Sequence record: PZ445532.1
Reading direction: 5' to 3' (one strand)
Source of the DNA: a phage
DNA length: 44,581 bases
Shown here: piece after piece, positions 9,956 to 40,105 of the stretch
How positions within the stretch are numbered: the stretch's first letter is position 1
Layout: each line of letters opens with the position of its first letter
Program-made: the position numbers and the translations under genes
Notes under the pieces: generated by a model
Databases searched by the model: none
Told to the model about the DNA's origin: nothing
Seen by the model: only the letters and a program-made list of their open reading frames with translations

Positions 9956-10681
9956 ATGGGTTATCAACTTCCTAACGGATCAAGCGTCCAGATTGGGTCC
10001 GTACTGGGCAACGGCATCGCTGTTACGGCAGCTACCAACGCCGCCGCGTCGATCTCTGATCTTACGAAAGGTTGCGTTATCACCTGCGCGGCTTCTCATG
10101 GCCTGCGAGTTGGTGACGTGGTTATGTTCACTAAAACCCCGTGGGTCCGTGCGTTGAACCGCGCGTTTATCGTGGGTAAAGTGGCGACTAACGACGTTAC
10201 ACTGGCGCGCTTCGATACTAAAGACGTCACCAAATACCCTACCGGCGCTTTCAGCGTAGGCACACCGGGTGAGGTGGTGAAGGTGTCGAGCTTTGTCGAC
10301 TTCCCGTATATCACTAACGTTGCTGTGTCGGGTGGCGATCAGCAGACTACTACCTTCCAGCCGTTGCAGGTGAATACCGCGATTAGTCTGAACACCACGA
10401 AAAACCCGTTGGTCCAGACCTACACTTTCACCCACGACGAAGAAGACCCGATCCGCCCGATTCTGGAAGACCTGGACGACACACAGAAAACCACTGTGAT
10501 TAAGTTCACTAACCCGGCAGCGGCGAGCGGCAAAGGTGAGATCCGCATTTACCCGGCTAAGGTGTCTTTCCGGAAGATTCCATCGTCTGAAGTAAACAAC
10601 GTGGAAACGGTGGAGTCCACTCTGACCATGCAGTCTGATATGGTTATCTACCGTAAGGATCTGGTCGAGGCATTGTCTTGA
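9956..10681 (+). CDS. major tail (tube) protein
   Basis: 241-aa ORF followed by a strong terminator and then the chaperone and tape-measure genes. Candidate promoter upstream (TTGGCG-17-TATCAT, about 9901..9930). Confidence 0.65.
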   Translation: MGYQLPNGSSVQIGSVLGNGIAVTAATNAAASISDLTKGCVITCAASHGLRVGDVVMFTKTPWVRALNRAFIVGKVATNDVTLARFDTKDVTKYPTGAFSVGTPGEVVKVSSFVDFPYITNVAVSGGDQQTTTFQPLQVNTAISLNTTKNPLVQTYTFTHDEEDPIRPILEDLDDTQKTTVIKFTNPAAASGKGEIRIYPAKVSFRKIPSSEVNNVETVESTLTMQSDMVIYRKDLVEALS

Positions 10682-10711
10682 TTTGGTCGCTTAAATAGCG
10701 AGTGATAATAT

Positions 10712-10734
10712 GGGGCCAGCACGGCCCCTTTTTT
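10712..10734 (+). terminator. rho-independent terminator
   Basis: GGGGCC-AGCAC-GGCCCC followed by TTTTTT. Confidence 0.8.
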
Positions 10735-10735
10735 A

Positions 10736-11113
10736 TTGGAGAATACTACAATGGCTAAAGCACCACTCTTTACACTTGACCCTAAGCCTACCTTTAAGCT
10801 GCCGATTGAGATCCCGCGCCCAGGCGAAAACGAACCGGGCAAAATGACGTTTACCGTGCGCCACCGTCCGATCGACGAGTTTTCGCAGACCATGCAGGAT
10901 ACTGAGCGCAAGCTGTCGGAATATGACGACAACGACCCGGAAGGCTTTAACGTTATGGTCGAGGCCATAATGCACGTCGCTGAAGGCTGGAATCTGCCAG
11001 ATGAATTTAACGCGGAGAACGTCCGCCGCCTGGTGGTTAACTACCCTCGAGCGTTCGGTGTGTTCCACACGTCGTACTATCTCGAATTGATGGGGTTGCG
11101 TGAAAAAAACTAA
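10736..11113 (+). CDS. tail assembly chaperone (gpG-like)
   Basis: 125-aa acidic ORF two genes upstream of the tape measure. Ends REKN* on the slippery run GAAAAAAAC. Confidence 0.7.
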   Translation: MENTTMAKAPLFTLDPKPTFKLPIEIPRPGENEPGKMTFTVRHRPIDEFSQTMQDTERKLSEYDDNDPEGFNVMVEAIMHVAEGWNLPDEFNAENVRRLVVNYPRAFGVFHTSYYLELMGLREKN

Positions 11114-11427
11114 TTGAGGCGGCGCGACGCTTTTATGGCCCGCCGCCACCCTCCGAAGATTTAGCCGCGAGTTTATGGGGAGCGACCCCTGAAGACGTTT
11201 GCCCCCCGGTTGCACTATGGCCCGACAACGCGAAGGTAGTCGCAGTCTTCACAGATTGCTCCACGCAATGGCGCACCGGATTCGGTGGCGCATACGGCAT
11301 CGACTACGGCGTACTGGAATGGCTATTTAAGATGCACGGCATCGAAAACGCACAACGTGCGTTTAAAGATATCAAGCTAATGGAACGCGTTGCGCTGGAT
11401 GAAATGGCGCGGCAGAACCCCGCATAA
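10736..11427 (+). CDS. tail assembly chaperone, -1 frameshift fusion product (gpGT-like)
   Basis: Heptamer A_AAA_AAC at 11104..11110 sits just before the zero-frame stop. The -1 frame is open for 108 codons (LIEAARRFYGPPPP...ARQNPA*) to 11427 and has no start codon of its own. Confidence 0.6.
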
Positions 11428-11429
11428 CG

Positions 11430-11742
11430 AAGCGGGACAGGCGGGACGTCCCGTTTTGTCCCGCACCTCTAAAACTGCATATTTACCCACTTACATTGCA
11501 TAAATTAAAAGCGGGACAGGGTGCTGTCCCGATCTATCCCACCCTCAAAATGTGAATATCTATTCTGTTTTCGTGCATAAAGTAAGCGGGACAAAAAGCG
11601 GGACAAACAGGAGGCGGGACAAAGCGGGACAGCACCCTGTCCCCGCCAGTGCTGCCGCGGGTTTTAGCCGATCGGGACAGGCGGGACAAAGCCCAGTCTT
11701 TCAGACTAGACGGGGGTCAATGGCCCCCCTCGTCTGAGACTG
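11430..11742. repeat. non-coding module: GCGGGACA(G) repeat array, inverted repeats and 51-bp conserved hairpin element (copy A)
   Basis: At least 8 copies of GCGGGACA in a 380-bp gap, several paired with CTGTCCC as hairpins. Ends with a 51-bp sequence (11692..11742) identical to 39840..39890. Confidence 0.85.
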
Positions 11743-11810
11743 AATAAGGTTTGTTTTAAATTCGCTGATACAATAACCGACGGCAACTGCATAAAAAGGG
11801 GGACTGCATA

Positions 11811-14453
11811 ATGGCAGATCAGGCAGCGGGCATCACGCTCAAGGCGGATGTTGCACAAATCAGAACGGCGAATACTGTACTTGATTCATTCGCACAGAAA
11901 TCTGAGAACACAGAACAGAAAGTAAAGAAATTAAACGACACCCTCGGCAAGTCGAAAAAGGTTACTGGCGACGCCGCGGGCGGAATGGAAAAGTTAGCGA
12001 CTGAATCGCAGCGTGCCGCCGATGGCATGACGAAACAAGAGCGACTCGCCAGCCGACTAGGCATGTCAACCAAAAACCTGGGATTCGCATCGCGGAACGC
12101 GGCATTCCAGTTACAGGATATCGCGGTTACGCTTGAGATGGGTATGCCGGTGCACCGCGTTATGCTTCAGCAGCTACCACAGCTAACCGGCGCATTTGGC
12201 GGACTGGGTAACACGCTGCGATATGTTGCAGGCTTCCTCGGCCCAGTAGGGATCGGACTTGCTGCCGTAACGGCGACGTTAGGCGTGGGTGTGGCAATTA
12301 CGTCACGGGCAGAGAACCAAGTAGCCGCGCTTAATAAGACGCTGGCGCTGTCCGGTAATATCTCCGGCCTCACAGCTAACCAGATCCTGGTGCTGTCCGA
12401 GAACGCCGAGCGCATGGGCGGGTCTTTTCGCAAGACGCGTGACACAATCCAGGCACTGGCGGCGGCTGGTGTGAAAGCGGGTGGTGACTTCGGCGCATTG
12501 GCTAAGGTAGTTAATGACTTTGCGAAGGTGTCCAGCCAGCCGATCGAGGATGTGGTGGCGGCGGTGGCTAAGCTGTCAACCGACCCCGTTGGCGGACTGC
12601 GTGCGCTGGCGGATAAGTATCACGTCGTAAACGAAGCGCAGATCCAGCAGGTACAGTCGCTCGTTGATGCGGGTCGTGAGACAGACGCAGTTGCGTTGGC
12701 TAACAAAACAGCCGCTGCGTCGTTCACCAGCATGACCAATGAAATCAAGTCCAACATGGGTACGCTTGAGCGGTCGATGAACGTCGTCACATCGGCAGCT
12801 AAATCTATGTGGGATGCAATCCTGGATGTGGGCCGCGCGCAGTCCTCGAATGAGTCAGAGATGAAAGCGCGTGAGTCATTGCAGCGCATGACCACGGCTT
12901 ATTATGCCGAGATGAAAGCGGTAAACGCTGCCGGTGGGGTAATGACTGAAGCGCAGAAAGCACGTATTAACATGCTTTACAGCGAACTGGTCGCCCAGGA
13001 AAAAGTGGTGGCGTCGCTCACCCTGCGCAACCGCGCCGAGCGTGACAACGCCCGCGCCGCGGATGAATCAGCAAAGGCGAACGAGGAGGCCAACCGCACT
13101 GCCCGTGACCGCGCCGCGTTCGAGAAGGAATACGCCACCAACGCTAAGAAGCGCGCCGACGAGATCGCCCGCCTCAATTTGCTGAATAAGCGCGGCGTTA
13201 TTGATGAGAAAGAACTAGCCGAGGCGGTTAAGCAGGTCAACGAGCGCTACAAAGACCCCGCCCCGAAGAAGGCCGCGGCTGTTCGCGTGGATGCCGGTAT
13301 GAAAATGCTGGAAGTCGCACGGAGCGAACTGGCCCAGCTTCGAGAATCCGGCAAGCAGATCGAAGCCAACGCGTCTACGCAGACCCGCACGCAACGCGCT
13401 CAAGCGGCCTTAAACAAGCTGATCGCCGACAATGAGCAGTTAATCGCTGCGAGCAAAGAAAGAGCGCTAACGGCAGCAGAAAAGCAGCAATTAGTCGAGT
13501 TCGGGCGCGTGAAGGAAGTCCGCGAGCAGATCGTCGAAGAAGCCAAATTGCTGGATGCGAAAGAGCAGCAGGTTAAGGCGCACGCGCAGATCGATGCCTT
13601 CGTTAAGAACCAGAACGCCGAACTAAAAGCCACCGCCGCGGGGTATGCGCTTTCCACTCGCGAAGCGGCAAACCTGCGCGAAGAATTGCAGCTAATTGAC
13701 CGCCTGAAGCGGGTTGGCGCTAACGATACCGATATTGACAAGGCGGTGTCTAAGCTGCGCGAAGTGCAGGAAGCACAGACCGGCGCTAACGCCTCGCTAT
13801 GGGATGGCTTCAGCCGCGGGCTTAAGGATAGCGTGGATGAAATGGGTAACGGATATACGCAGATGGCGACGCTAACGAAATTCACGTTCAGCGCTATGCA
13901 AGACACGATGAACGAGTTTTTCGAGACTGGCAAGCTGAACGCAAAGGATATGGTTAAATCCATCCTGAGCGAACTAATCAAGCTGGCTACCTCGCAGGCG
14001 TTCAAGTCCATCGTTAGCGCTTTCGGTGGCGACGGCGGCAAAAACGGATTGTTCGGCGCTATCTTCTCTGGCCTCACTAAGAATGCGGACGGCGGAGCGT
14101 ACGCAGGAGGCAATCTCGCGGCCTATTCGGGTAAAGTGGTAAGCCAGCCTACCTTTTTCAGTTATGGCGTCCAGGCGTTCGCTAAGGGCGCAGGATTGAT
14201 GGGGGAGGCCGGACCCGAGGCCATCATGCCACTGAAGCGCGGGCCGGACGGGAAACTGGGCGTTGCCGCGTCTGGCGCAGGTGGTGGTATGGTCGTGACG
14301 ACTAACGTTTACACGGGGACCGGTAAAACGGATACCAGTGTCAGCGGGCCGGACCCCCGTACTGCGCAGGCGTTCGGCAAGCAAATCACCGAGGCGGTGA
14401 AATCCGAGATCGTGAAGGCGACGAAACCGGGTGGTGTACTTTACAAACGATGA
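11811..14453 (+). CDS. tail tape measure protein
   Basis: 880-aa ORF, Ala/Gln/Lys-rich with long predicted helical segments and a glycine-rich C-terminal part. Canonical position. Confidence 0.9.
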   Translation: MADQAAGITLKADVAQIRTANTVLDSFAQKSENTEQKVKKLNDTLGKSKKVTGDAAGGMEKLATESQRAADGMTKQERLASRLGMSTKNLGFASRNAAFQLQDIAVTLEMGMPVHRVMLQQLPQLTGAFGGLGNTLRYVAGFLGPVGIGLAAVTATLGVGVAITSRAENQVAALNKTLALSGNISGLTANQILVLSENAERMGGSFRKTRDTIQALAAAGVKAGGDFGALAKVVNDFAKVSSQPIEDVVAAVAKLSTDPVGGLRALADKYHVVNEAQIQQVQSLVDAGRETDAVALANKTAAASFTSMTNEIKSNMGTLERSMNVVTSAAKSMWDAILDVGRAQSSNESEMKARESLQRMTTAYYAEMKAVNAAGGVMTEAQKARINMLYSELVAQEKVVASLTLRNRAERDNARAADESAKANEEANRTARDRAAFEKEYATNAKKRADEIARLNLLNKRGVIDEKELAEAVKQVNERYKDPAPKKAAAVRVDAGMKMLEVARSELAQLRESGKQIEANASTQTRTQRAQAALNKLIADNEQLIAASKERALTAAEKQQLVEFGRVKEVREQIVEEAKLLDAKEQQVKAHAQIDAFVKNQNAELKATAAGYALSTREAANLREELQLIDRLKRVGANDTDIDKAVSKLREVQEAQTGANASLWDGFSRGLKDSVDEMGNGYTQMATLTKFTFSAMQDTMNEFFETGKLNAKDMVKSILSELIKLATSQAFKSIVSAFGGDGGKNGLFGAIFSGLTKNADGGAYAGGNLAAYSGKVVSQPTFFSYGVQAFAKGAGLMGEAGPEAIMPLKRGPDGKLGVAASGAGGGMVVTTNVYTGTGKTDTSVSGPDPRTAQAFGKQITEAVKSEIVKATKPGGVLYKR

Positions 14454-39690: not shown

Positions 39691-39724
39691 GTAAATATAG
39701 TGAATAGTTATGCAATAAAACTGC

Positions 39725-39890
39725 ATAAAGTAAGCGGGACAGAAAGCGGGACAGACCAGGGGCGGGACAAAGCGGGACAGCACCCCTGTCCCGCCCCGGA
39801 TGACGCGGCCTGGCGAGGAGCGGGACAGCGGGACAGCACCCCAGTCTTTCAGACTAGACGGGGGTCAATGGCCCCCCTCGTCTGAGACTG
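39725..39890. repeat. non-coding module: GCGGGACA(G) repeat array and 51-bp conserved hairpin element (copy B)
   Basis: AGCGGGACAG repeated at least 6 times. Hairpin GGGACAG-CACC-CCTGTCCC. The terminal 51 bp (39840..39890) are identical to 11692..11742. Confidence 0.85.
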
Positions 39891-40105
39891 CATAAAATCC
39901 AGGATGCACGACGCACGGCAGCATGATGCAAATTGCGGTCGTCGATGAACTAGGCAACCAATGCGAGTTGCAGAATGGTGGGTGGAAAATGCAGTTTGCA
40001 GTCACAGCAGATAGCGATCGACTTTTTCATGCGCGTGATTAATATTGGTTGCATTCGCCCTGGCACACTGCTATATTGGTTGCACACCAACATGAGGACT
40101 GAACA

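What the first reader, a model, noticed from the sequence alone, without database searches (positions are those of the whole stretch)
11104..11427. Programmed -1 ribosomal frameshift in the tail assembly chaperone gene
The heptamer A_AAA_AAC (11104..11110) lies exactly at the end of the 125-aa chaperone ORF. The -1 frame has a stop at 11101..11103 just before the heptamer and is then open for 108 codons, with no start codon of its own. This matches the conserved G/GT frameshift of tailed phages, and the ORF track misses the extension.
Basis: partly seen in the sequence, partly recalled or inferred. Interest (0 to 1): 0.45.

Follow-up and report, generated by a model that had tools for sequence, protein, structure and literature searches.

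The report
Unannotated tail-chaperone -1 frameshift site
This E. coli phage makes a second, longer version of its tail-assembly helper protein by letting a few ribosomes slip back one base at the end of the gene; this is a well-known phage trick, but public records of this phage group do not annotate it.

Summary
The window is a Dhillonvirus (HK578-like E. coli siphophage). The chaperone gene G (10751..11113, Pfam Phage_TAC_4) ends ...AAA AAC TAA, with A_AAA_AAC at 11104..11110. The -1 frame has TGA at 11101..11103, then 107 sense codons to TAA at 11425..11427. Its first start-type codon is at codon 77. It encodes a DUF1799 domain (E=3e-21). The pair lies between the tail-tube and tape-measure genes.

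In 18 distinct Dhillonvirus sequences the -1 ORF varies mostly at third codon positions (22/9/69 variable sites), like G (10/6/77). Among about 175 related loci, grouped into 37 clusters at 70% identity, the T ORF is always in the -1 frame. The zero frame almost always ends in A_AAA_AAC or G_GGA_AAC, usually directly followed by the stop.

A hairpin (11118..11147) starts 7 nt downstream. It coincides with a stretch where synonymous variation is suppressed.

Verdict: this is a genuine G/GT-type programmed -1 frameshift, producing G (14.0 kDa) and GT (25.6 kDa). It is a new, unannotated member of a well-known kind. No protein evidence exists.

The parts
10712..10728 (+). Terminator-like GC hairpin plus T-run between the tail-tube gene and G (context; may lower chaperone and tape-measure transcription relative to the tube gene)
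   Evidence: Consensus scan, (GGGGCCAGCACGGCCCC TTTTTTATTG). Function not tested.
10751..11113 (+). Gene G: short tail assembly chaperone, 120 aa, 13.97 kDa. ATG 10751 is preceded by GGAG at 10739-42. The alternative TTG 10736 gives 125 aa.
   Evidence: Pfam PF08748 Phage_TAC_4, E=9e-24. The same 363-nt CDS is annotated in relatives. Variable sites per codon position are 10/6/77.
11101..11103 (+). TGA stop in the -1 frame immediately 5' of the heptamer. It limits the G/T overlap to the heptamer itself, so the shift can only happen there.
11104..11110 (+). Slippery heptamer A_AAA_AAC (zero-frame codons AAA Lys, AAC Asn)
   Evidence: Invariant in all Dhillonvirus loci fetched. The same position holds A_AAA_AAC or G_GGA_AAC in 37 of 37 T-protein clusters at 70% identity; one of them also contains the Rogunavirus A_AAG variant.
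11111..11113 (+). Zero-frame TAA stop directly abutting the heptamer (possible 'shifty stop' stimulator)
   Evidence: The stop is immediately adjacent in 125 of 158 related loci and one codon away in 22 more.
11110..11427 (+). T extension read in the -1 frame after the slip. The first new codon is CTA at 11110-12, followed by 104 more sense codons (105 in all) and TAA at 11425-27. The DUF1799 domain lies here. The GT CDS is join(10751..11110,11110..11427): 225 aa, 25.61 kDa.
   Evidence: Pfam PF08809, E=3e-21, and phrog_680, 3e-31. Variable sites per codon position in this frame are 22/9/69. No start-type codon occurs before 11332.
11118..11147 (+). Candidate stimulatory hairpin, 7 nt 3' of the heptamer. 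A 7-bp G/C stem (11118-24 with 11141-47) is extended by an inner stem. Free energy is -15.6 kcal/mol alone and -17.1 in a 48-nt context.
   Evidence: It falls in the 7th percentile of local 48-nt windows. Only 2 variable sites occur in 11099-11147, both at unpaired positions, and 1 of 12 third-codon positions varies against 68 of 93 elsewhere, Fisher p=2e-5. Two pairs change on both sides against T1-like phages. The stimulatory role is not tested.
9956..10681 (+). Tail tube (major tail) protein gene, upstream synteny anchor
   Evidence: PF08813, E=5.9e-33.
11811..14453 (+). Tape measure protein gene, downstream synteny anchor and the presumed client of G and GT
   Evidence: PF06791, E=2.6e-43, and PF09718.

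Best explanation
Genes G and T of this Dhillonvirus are decoded as in the lambda G/GT system.

Most ribosomes translate G (10751..11113) and terminate at TAA 11111, giving the 120-aa chaperone. A small fraction slip one base backwards. This happens when Lys-tRNA and Asn-tRNA occupy AAA AAC, or when peptidyl-tRNA-Asn waits with the stop codon in the A site. The tRNAs re-pair on AAA AAA, the ribosome then reads CTA (Leu, 11110-12) and continues for 105 codons. The product is a 225-aa GT fusion whose C-terminal half is a DUF1799 domain.

The adjacent stop codon and a hairpin starting 7 nt downstream probably pause the ribosome on the heptamer and set the low, fixed G:GT ratio.

By analogy with lambda (inferred, not shown here), many G copies and a few GT copies coat the tape measure protein. 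The T domain then recruits the tail tube protein, and neither G nor GT ends up in the virion.

Shown here: the sequence anatomy, the homology, the synteny, purifying selection in the -1 frame and family-wide conservation of the signal.

Inferred: that the slip occurs, its efficiency, and the roles of the stop codon and the hairpin.
For: 1. Anatomy is exact. The overlap of the two open frames is precisely the heptamer.
2. G is PF08748 and T is PF08809. A single PHROG profile spans both halves.
3. The pair lies between the tube and tape measure genes.
4. T has no start-type codon for 76 codons. Its protein conservation nevertheless begins at the first post-slip residue: Leu1 is invariant in an alignment of 9 diverse T domains.
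5. In 18 distinct Dhillonvirus sequences, third-position variation dominates in the -1 frame (22/9/69). The downstream 383-nt gap shows no periodicity (49/50/52) and carries indels.
6. Across Dhillonvirus, Drexlerviridae, Ralstonia, Pseudomonas and Xanthomonas phages, a cyanophage and IMG/VR contigs, T is in the -1 frame and the zero frame ends in A_AAA_AAC or G_GGA_AAC(/T). The stop is adjacent in 125 of 158 loci and one codon away in 22. This holds in all 37 clusters at 70% identity.
7. The hairpin coincides with a stretch of suppressed synonymous variation whose 3' edge (11147) is the 3' end of the stem. Pairs 20-39 and 21-38 covary.
8. Half of 98 distinct downstream contexts have a hairpin in the lowest 10% of local windows, mostly starting 6-7 nt after the heptamer.
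9. Literature: the G/GT frameshift is conserved in tailed phages, with a lambda ratio of about 30:1 (PMC5009743). AAAAAAC abutting the chaperone stop was proposed as the shift site in Acinetobacter phage Loki (PMC5313236). Sharma et al. list an IS cluster with A_AAA_AAC as a proven case of -1 frameshifting in E. coli (PMC4066793).
Against: - There is no protein-level evidence for GT in this phage or any Dhillonvirus. Literature searches found none.
- In E. coli, A_AAA_AAC is a much weaker shifter than A_AAA_AAG, and AAC-to-AAA re-pairing is poorly tolerated. Efficiency may therefore be very low.
- The hairpin is not significant against dinucleotide shuffles of a 97-nt segment (z=-0.85).
- The hairpin is absent or weak in about half of the family, for example the Rogunavirinae-like loci.
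- Covariation rests on 2-3 pairs, essentially between two clades. The stem is built from conserved Ala-Ala and Pro-Pro codons, so protein constraint may explain part of its conservation.
- None of the 12 GenBank records inspected annotates a joined CDS. A fusion-protein search found no full-length homologue.
Confidence: 0.9

Rival explanations
1. Transcriptional slippage. RNA polymerase occasionally adds one extra A in the A7 run (11103..11109). A minority of mRNAs then carry G and T in one frame, and GT is made without ribosomal slippage.
For: The window has a run of 7 A. Homopolymeric A/T runs are known slippage sites (review PMC5009743). The protein product would be nearly the same as the frameshift product.
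Against: About half of the related clusters carry G_GGA_AAC at the homologous position, with only 3 G and 3 A. That is a classic tandem-tRNA slip site and offers no homopolymer run for polymerase slippage. T1-like relatives have only A6. The conserved 0-frame phasing X_XXY_YYZ and the adjacent stop codon are features of ribosomal signals, not polymerase signals. From my own knowledge, efficient slippage in E. coli generally needs runs of about 9 or more.
Confidence: 0.05
2. T is made as a separate protein by independent or re-initiated translation, for example from the in-frame ATT at 11113 or by termination-reinitiation at TAA 11111. No fusion to G is made.
For: Many GenBank records annotate separate short ORFs in this region. 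ATT at 11113-15 is in the T frame.
Against: No ATG, GTG or TTG occurs in the first 76 codons. No Shine-Dalgarno sequence precedes 11113. The annotated 31-38-aa fragments remove most of the DUF1799 domain, which spans residues 25-101 of the extension. Conservation of the protein and of codon periodicity begins right at the heptamer. Family-wide, the median position of the first start-type codon in the T frame is codon 23 and it is not conserved. A separate T would not need an in-phase slippery heptamer conserved in all 37 clusters.
Confidence: 0.03
3. The extension is a decaying remnant, or the frame break is an assembly error, and there is no recoding.
For: Four of about 175 related loci (L027, L036, L074, L092) have a disrupted or one-base-shorter A run. 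This shows that this site is prone to homopolymer errors.
Against: The same -1 arrangement appears in more than 150 independently sequenced genomes and contigs. The third-position bias of substitutions (22/9/69) shows purifying selection on the -1 frame. The Pfam match has E=3e-21.
Confidence: 0.01

Closest known systems
Phage lambda G / GT tail assembly chaperones (programmed -1 frameshift at G_GGA_AAG; Levin et al. 1993, Xu et al. 2004, as summarised in PMC5009743)
   Same: The position between the tail tube and tape measure genes is the same. So is the layout: a short upstream ORF plus a -1 ORF with no start, a canonical X_XXY_YYZ heptamer at the very end of the upstream ORF, and an expected low-ratio fusion product.
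   Different: There is no detectable sequence relationship. G here is PF08748 and T is PF08809, and the Pfam scan at E<=1 returned no other families, so no lambda G or T family matched. The A-site codon is AAC, not AAG. The zero-frame stop directly abuts the heptamer, and a conserved hairpin follows. By my recollection lambda needs no downstream stimulator. A 383-nt non-coding gap separates T from the tape measure gene.
T1-like phages (Drexlerviridae) 'tape measure chaperone' gene pair
   Same: These are true homologues. The T domains are 31-36% identical and belong to the same Pfam families. The zero frame also ends ...AAA AAC TAA. The hairpin sits in the same register (stem columns 15-21 with 38-44), with two pairs showing changes on both sides. 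They are likewise not annotated as a fusion.
   Different: The A run is 6 rather than 7. The stem sequence is GGGCGGTT/AACCGCCC rather than GGCGGCG/CGCCGCC. T ends about 40 nt before the tape measure gene. The Rogunavirus branch has replaced the heptamer by GCA_AAG_GTC_TAA, an A_AAG tetramer.
Acinetobacter phage Loki gp12/gp13 (PMC5313236)
   Same: The published prediction is the same signal: AAAAAAC immediately adjacent to the chaperone stop codon, proposed to fuse gp12 and gp13 by a -1 shift.
   Different: It is a different phage and host. Homology to this pair was not tested here, and that prediction also has no experimental support.
Proven A_AAA_AAC -1 frameshift in an E. coli IS element (cluster A_AAA_AAC_1 in Sharma et al. 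2014, PMC4066793; from memory this is IS1 insA-insB')
   Same: The heptamer and the host translation apparatus are the same. It is a proven low-efficiency -1 ribosomal frameshift with no established stimulator.
   Different: It makes a transposase rather than a virion assembly factor. There is no homology, and the stop-codon and hairpin context differs.

Membership tests
G/GT-type tail assembly chaperone pair with programmed frameshift (Xu et al. 2004 class) | Two ORFs located between the major tail (tube) gene and the tape measure gene | tested here: met
   Tube gene PF08813 at 9956-10681; G at 10751-11113; T to 11427; tape measure gene PF06791 at 11811-14453.
G/GT-type tail assembly chaperone pair with programmed frameshift (Xu et al. 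2004 class) | The downstream ORF overlaps the end of the upstream ORF in the -1 frame and lacks its own initiation signals | tested here: met
   The -1 frame is open from 11104. The first start-type codon is at 11332, and no Shine-Dalgarno sequence is present.
G/GT-type tail assembly chaperone pair with programmed frameshift (Xu et al. 2004 class) | Canonical slippery heptamer X_XXY_YYZ, phased to the upstream frame, inside the overlap | tested here: met
   A_AAA_AAC at 11104-11110. It is the whole overlap.
G/GT-type tail assembly chaperone pair with programmed frameshift (Xu et al. 2004 class) | Arrangement and slip site conserved among diverged relatives; downstream ORF under purifying selection | tested here: met
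   All 37 clusters at 70% identity keep the arrangement, and 147 of 158 loci have the heptamer 0-1 codon from the stop. Codon-position variation is 22/9/69.
G/GT-type tail assembly chaperone pair with programmed frameshift (Xu et al. 2004 class) | Two protein products, G and GT, made in a fixed ratio; both needed for tail assembly; neither present in virions | not testable with these tools
   This needs a western blot, mass spectrometry and genetics.
Pfam PF08748 (Phage_TAC_4) / PF08809 (DUF1799) | Score above the Pfam gathering threshold | tested here: met
   84.5 bits against a cutoff of 21.1, and 75.9 bits against a cutoff of 26.
Lambda gpG / gpT sequence families | Sequence match to the lambda-type chaperone and T families | tested here: not met
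   The Pfam scan at E<=1 returned only PF08748 and PF08809. A PDB sequence search returned nothing. The pair is therefore an analogue, or a homologue too remote to detect, not a sequence-family member.
Stimulated bacterial -1 PRF cassette (dnaX / IS3 type) | Downstream hairpin or pseudoknot 5-9 nt from the heptamer | tested here: inconclusive
   A hairpin with a 7-nt spacer and -15.6 to -17.1 kcal/mol is present, with synonymous suppression (p=2e-5) and 2-3 covarying pairs. It is not significant against shuffles and is missing in about half of the family.
Stimulated bacterial -1 PRF cassette (dnaX / IS3 type) | Upstream Shine-Dalgarno-like stimulator about 10 nt 5' of the heptamer | tested here: not met
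   The only G-rich element, GGGG at 11093-96, includes positions that vary among Dhillonviruses (11095, 11096, 11098). It has no counterpart in distant relatives.
Transcriptional slippage site | Long homopolymeric A/T run conserved at the shift position | tested here: not met
   The run is A7 here and A6 in T1-like phages. About half of the clusters have GGGAAAC, which has no run.

The most novel reading that the evidence does not exclude
The DUF1799-type chaperone family may carry a distinct, strictly conserved bacterial -1 signal: X_XXA_AAC fused directly to the zero-frame stop codon, often with a hairpin 6-7 nt downstream.

AAC-to-AAA re-pairing is disfavoured on E. coli ribosomes. The near-universal AAC (never AAG) together with the abutting stop suggests a different route from the textbook one. 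The shift may occur mainly by P-site slippage of peptidyl-tRNA-Asn while release factor is awaited, a 'shifty stop', rather than by tandem slippage. In that case termination kinetics would set the G:GT ratio.

The invariant first residue of T would then be a by-product of the overlapping stop. It is Leu, encoded by CTA or CTG in the loci where the stop abuts the heptamer, and is followed by a codon starting with A.
Probability: 0.3. Interest if true: 0.4.

Novelty: new member of a known kind. Interest (0 to 1): 0.25.

Why it matters
Practical value. About 155 Dhillonvirus records, and by extension several hundred T1-like and other records among the 1154 phage records with a T homologue, either leave the T domain unannotated or call a 31-38-aa fragment. 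G is often mislabelled 'tail length tape measure protein'. The correct annotation is join(10751..11110,11110..11427) with ribosomal_slippage. It restores a 225-aa essential assembly protein. This is relevant to phage engineering, to proteomics databases, and to studies in which tail assembly chaperones act as triggers of bacterial immune sensors (PMC13581612).

Scientific value. This is a clean, deeply conserved natural example of A_AAA_AAC or G_GGA_AAC used with an abutting stop codon in bacteria, where that A-site codon is considered poor. It offers a natural system to test how stop codons and hairpins tune very low frameshift ratios. It does not reveal a new kind of mechanism.

Tried and rejected
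- Searching 5.8 billion proteins with the conceptual GT fusion returned only 3 partial hits and no full-length fusion, probably because of word-index sensitivity. It was uninformative.
- A PDB sequence search found no hit.
- Rfam at E<=1 gave nothing at the slip site. It gave only sub-threshold miRNA-like hits that reflect a long inverted repeat at 11510-11647.
- The 9-sequence T alignment was too diverse for pattern-based locus retrieval. I split it into two sub-alignments, which worked.
- My first automatic frame assignment called 12 loci '+1'. Inspection showed that most were artefacts: in GC-rich genomes it picked the longest spurious open frame, and the real G frame ends ...[KG]N* in the -1 relation. 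Two (L074, L092) instead have a one-base-shorter A run. The analysis was redone.
- An upstream Shine-Dalgarno stimulator was considered and rejected because it is not conserved.
- A whole-segment MFE z-score was not significant as a test of the hairpin. I replaced it with local-window percentiles, synonymous-site suppression and pair counts.
- Xu et al. 2004 (Mol Cell) could not be read. I therefore cannot say whether T1-type phages were already in their table.
- Literature searches for Dhillonvirus or HK578 plus frameshift, and for T1-like plus chaperone plus frameshift, found no specific prior description.

Full report
**1. Identity of the window**

A megablast of 10700-11830 against 50,697 phage records found 159 records at 80-97% identity. 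Nearly all are Escherichia or Shigella phages of the genus Dhillonvirus (HK578, SSL-2009a, JL1, EP23 and others). The window is therefore a Dhillonvirus genome of about 44.6 kb.

**2. The observation**

- The chaperone ORF ends ...CGT GAA AAA AAC TAA. AAAAAAC lies at 11104..11110, phased A_AAA_AAC, and TAA lies at 11111..11113.
- The -1 frame has TGA at 11101..11103. It is then open for 107 sense codons to TAA at 11425..11427.
- The overlap of the two open frames is exactly the heptamer.
- The first ATG, GTG or TTG in the -1 frame is ATG 11332, codon index 76. This is why ORF listing does not report the extension.

There is one small correction. The 125-aa reading starts at TTG 10736. ATG 10751, with GGAG 8 nt upstream, gives 120 aa, and that is the CDS annotated in relatives.

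**3. Is the pattern more than chance?**

The heptamer alone is not: there are 5 copies in the window against 8.3 expected. The bare pattern is also not unique. I looked for an in-frame X_XXY_YYZ in the last 30 codons with the -1 frame open for at least 80 codons beyond. This occurs 3 times (4 heptamer hits) among 203 open stretches. The other two cases are ordinary ATGA-type overlaps with a downstream gene that has its own ATG. The G/T case is the only one without a start codon. What makes it real is the evidence in sections 4 to 6.

**4. What the two ORFs encode**

- G matches Pfam PF08748 Phage_TAC_4 over its full length (E=9e-24).
- The extension matches PF08809 DUF1799 (E=3e-21, residues 25-101).
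- In PHROGs, one 213-position profile (phrog_17368) is matched by G at positions 1-107 and by the extension at 147-212. A family therefore exists in which both halves lie on one polypeptide or model.
- Upstream lie a tail terminator gene (PF13554) and the tail tube gene (PF08813, 9956-10681). Downstream lies the tape measure gene (PF06791 and PF09718, 11811-14453).

This is the canonical position of the G/GT pair.

**5. Selection on the -1 frame**

I aligned 18 distinct Dhillonvirus sequences (the window, 3 GenBank loci and 14 IMG/VR loci). The number of variable sites at codon positions 1, 2 and 3 was as follows.

| Region | Position 1 | Position 2 | Position 3 |
|---|---|---|---|
| G | 10 | 6 | 77 |
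| Extension, read in the -1 frame | 22 | 9 | 69 |
| 383-nt region after it | 49 | 50 | 52 |

The region after the extension also carries many indels. The extension is therefore a translated, constrained coding sequence, and the gap behind it is not.

**6. Family-wide conservation**

tblastn with the T domain found 1154 phage records. Besides Dhillonvirus these are mainly Drexlerviridae (T1-like phages of E. coli, Klebsiella and others), Ralstonia, Pseudomonas and Xanthomonas phages, and a cyanophage. I fetched diverse GenBank loci and 165 IMG/VR loci.

- In every interpretable locus the T-homologous frame is -1 relative to a chaperone-like ORF ending ...[K/G]-N-stop.
- The table gives the last seven zero-frame bases and the stop in the 158 non-Dhillonvirus loci.

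| Zero-frame ending | Loci |
|---|---|
| AAAAAAC + stop | 84 (72 TAA, 11 TGA, 1 TAG) |
| GGGAAAC/T + stop | 42 |
| GGGAAAC-NNN-stop | 22 |
| Rogunavirus group, GCA_AAG_GTC_TAA (A_AAG tetramer slip site in the same position) | 6 |
| Damaged or unclear | 4 |

  In 125 of the 158 loci the stop directly abuts the heptamer at the standard position relative to the start of the T homology.
- I clustered 173 T proteins by single linkage at 70% identity, which gave 37 clusters. All 37 carry one of these signals: 16 have AAAAAAC plus an adjacent stop, 17 have GGGAAAC/T plus an adjacent stop, 3 have GGGAAAC with the stop one codon later, and 1 mixes AAAAAAC with the A_AAG variant.
- T domains in this set are only 30-42% identical to the window's, yet Leu1, the first residue read after the slip, is invariant. 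Where the stop abuts the heptamer, that Leu is CTA or CTG and the next codon starts with A. This is the footprint of the overlapping TAA or TGA.

**7. Mechanism: ribosomal, not transcriptional**

The interchange of A_AAA_AAC with G_GGA_AAC at the homologous position argues for tRNA re-pairing on a phased heptamer. It argues against polymerase slippage on a homopolymer, which GGGAAAC does not offer.

[quoted passage not shown] They also list an IS element with A_AAA_AAC as a proven low-level case (PMC5009743; PMC4066793). A weak heptamer fits a chaperone pair that in lambda is needed at about 30:1.

The conserved abutting stop codon suggests that slow termination contributes to the shift (a 'shifty stop'). 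This is an inference.

**8. Downstream hairpin**

- Seven nucleotides after the heptamer, GGCGGCG (11118-24) can pair with CGCCGCC (11141-47), extended by an inner stem. The free energy is -15.6 kcal/mol for the 30-mer and -17.1 in a 48-nt context. That is the 7th percentile of 48-nt windows within 900 nt on either side.
- Among Dhillonviruses the stretch 11099-11147 has only two variable sites, 11125 and 11127, and both are at unpaired positions. Variation resumes at 11148, one base past the stem.
- In T-frame third-codon positions across 11110-11147, 1 of 12 varies, against 68 of 93 in the rest of the extension (Fisher p=2e-5).
- T1-like phages have a hairpin in the same register with a different sequence (GGGCGGTT/AACCGCCC). 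On a 30-sequence ungapped alignment, 80% of cells pair, against 34-57% when the 3' partner is slid by 1-3 columns. Pairs 20-39 (UA, UG, CG) and 21-38 (UA, GC) change on both sides.

Caveats:
- A 97-nt fold is not better than shuffles (z=-0.85).
- About half of 98 distinct family contexts lack a strong hairpin, including the Rogunavirinae-like phages.
- The stem is made of conserved Ala-Ala and Pro-Pro codons.

I rate the hairpin as a probable, untested stimulator. An upstream Shine-Dalgarno-like stimulator is not supported.

**9. Products**

G is 120 aa and 13.97 kDa. GT is 225 aa and 25.61 kDa, with the junction ...GLREKN|LIEAARR....

**10. Prior knowledge and annotation status**

The G/GT frameshift is textbook knowledge for tailed phages. 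[quoted passage not shown]

For Dhillonvirus and its T1-like relatives I found no description in the searchable literature. None of the 12 annotated records I opened has a joined CDS. T is either missing or reduced to a 31-38-aa 'hypothetical' or 'DUF1799' ORF. G is often labelled 'tail length tape measure protein'. I could not read Xu et al. 2004.

The finding is therefore a correct, well-supported but unsurprising instance: a new member of a known kind and a widespread annotation gap.

**11. Verdict**

A programmed -1 ribosomal frameshift at 11104-11110 producing GT is the best explanation (confidence 0.9). The residual alternatives are transcriptional slippage (0.05), independent translation of T (0.03), and an artefact or remnant (0.01).

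Interest is 0.25. The most novel reading still open is that this family uses a distinct stop-codon-dependent, P-site slippage cassette built on a heptamer that is 'poor' in bacteria (probability about 0.3, interest 0.4 if true).

Noticed in passing
window 11432-11688 and 39734-39835 (also 138 and 29716); module 11574-11746 vs 39721-39893: The octamer GCGGGACA occurs 17 times against 2.1 expected. Almost all copies are on the + strand and sit in two clusters. One cluster fills the 383-nt non-coding gap between T and the tape measure gene. A module of about 175 nt is duplicated at roughly 85-90% identity between the two sites. It holds 4-6 octamers and the hairpin AGACGGGGGTCAATGGCCCCCCTCGTCT, followed by GAGACTG(C/A)ATAA. 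The gap and its octamer array are conserved in other Dhillonviruses (380-396 nt, 4-7 copies), whereas T1-like phages have only about 40 nt there. It may be a regulator-binding or promoter array, or a GGA-rich RNA. Its function is unknown.
   Followed up: partly
window 11510-11647: A long inverted repeat (AGCGGGACAGGGTGCTGTCCCG ... CGGGACAGCACCCTGTCCCCGC) gives sub-threshold Rfam hits to plant miRNA precursor models. These hits simply reflect a long hairpin.
   Followed up: no
window 10712-10728: An intrinsic-terminator-like hairpin plus T-run lies between the tail tube gene and G. A similar terminator is annotated at the same place in Rogunavirus AKS96. It may reduce chaperone and tape-measure transcription relative to the tube gene.
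   Followed up: no
L026, L091, L093-L096 (Rogunavirus-type Drexlerviridae), junction about 1170-1183 of each locus: These relatives lack the heptamer. G ends ...CGC GCA AAG GTC TAA, and T continues in the -1 frame from AAA GGT. The likely slip site is the tetramer A_AAG, the most shift-prone tetramer in E. coli according to PMC4066793. The weak heptamer appears to have been replaced in evolution by a strong tetramer. These loci also lack the hairpin.
   Followed up: partly
L027 (Enterobacter phage N5822), L036, L074, L092: In three of these records (L027, L074, L092) the A run at the slip site is one base shorter (TAAAAAC), which puts T out of the -1 relation; the L036 junction is disrupted in another way. 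These are probably homopolymer sequencing errors, since N5822 also has several fragmented tail genes. They could also be genuine variants.
   Followed up: no
GenBank/RefSeq Dhillonvirus and Drexlerviridae records: There is systematic mislabelling. The chaperone G, and fragments of T, are named 'tail length tape measure protein' in many RefSeq and Pharokka-style annotations, following the PHROG labels of phrog_569 and phrog_680.
   Followed up: partly
one search hit list: Records named Acinetobacter phage NJ01, a Campylobacter phage and a Salmonella phage match this E. coli Dhillonvirus region (NJ01 at 94% identity). Either the host labels are questionable or the samples were contaminated.
   Followed up: no
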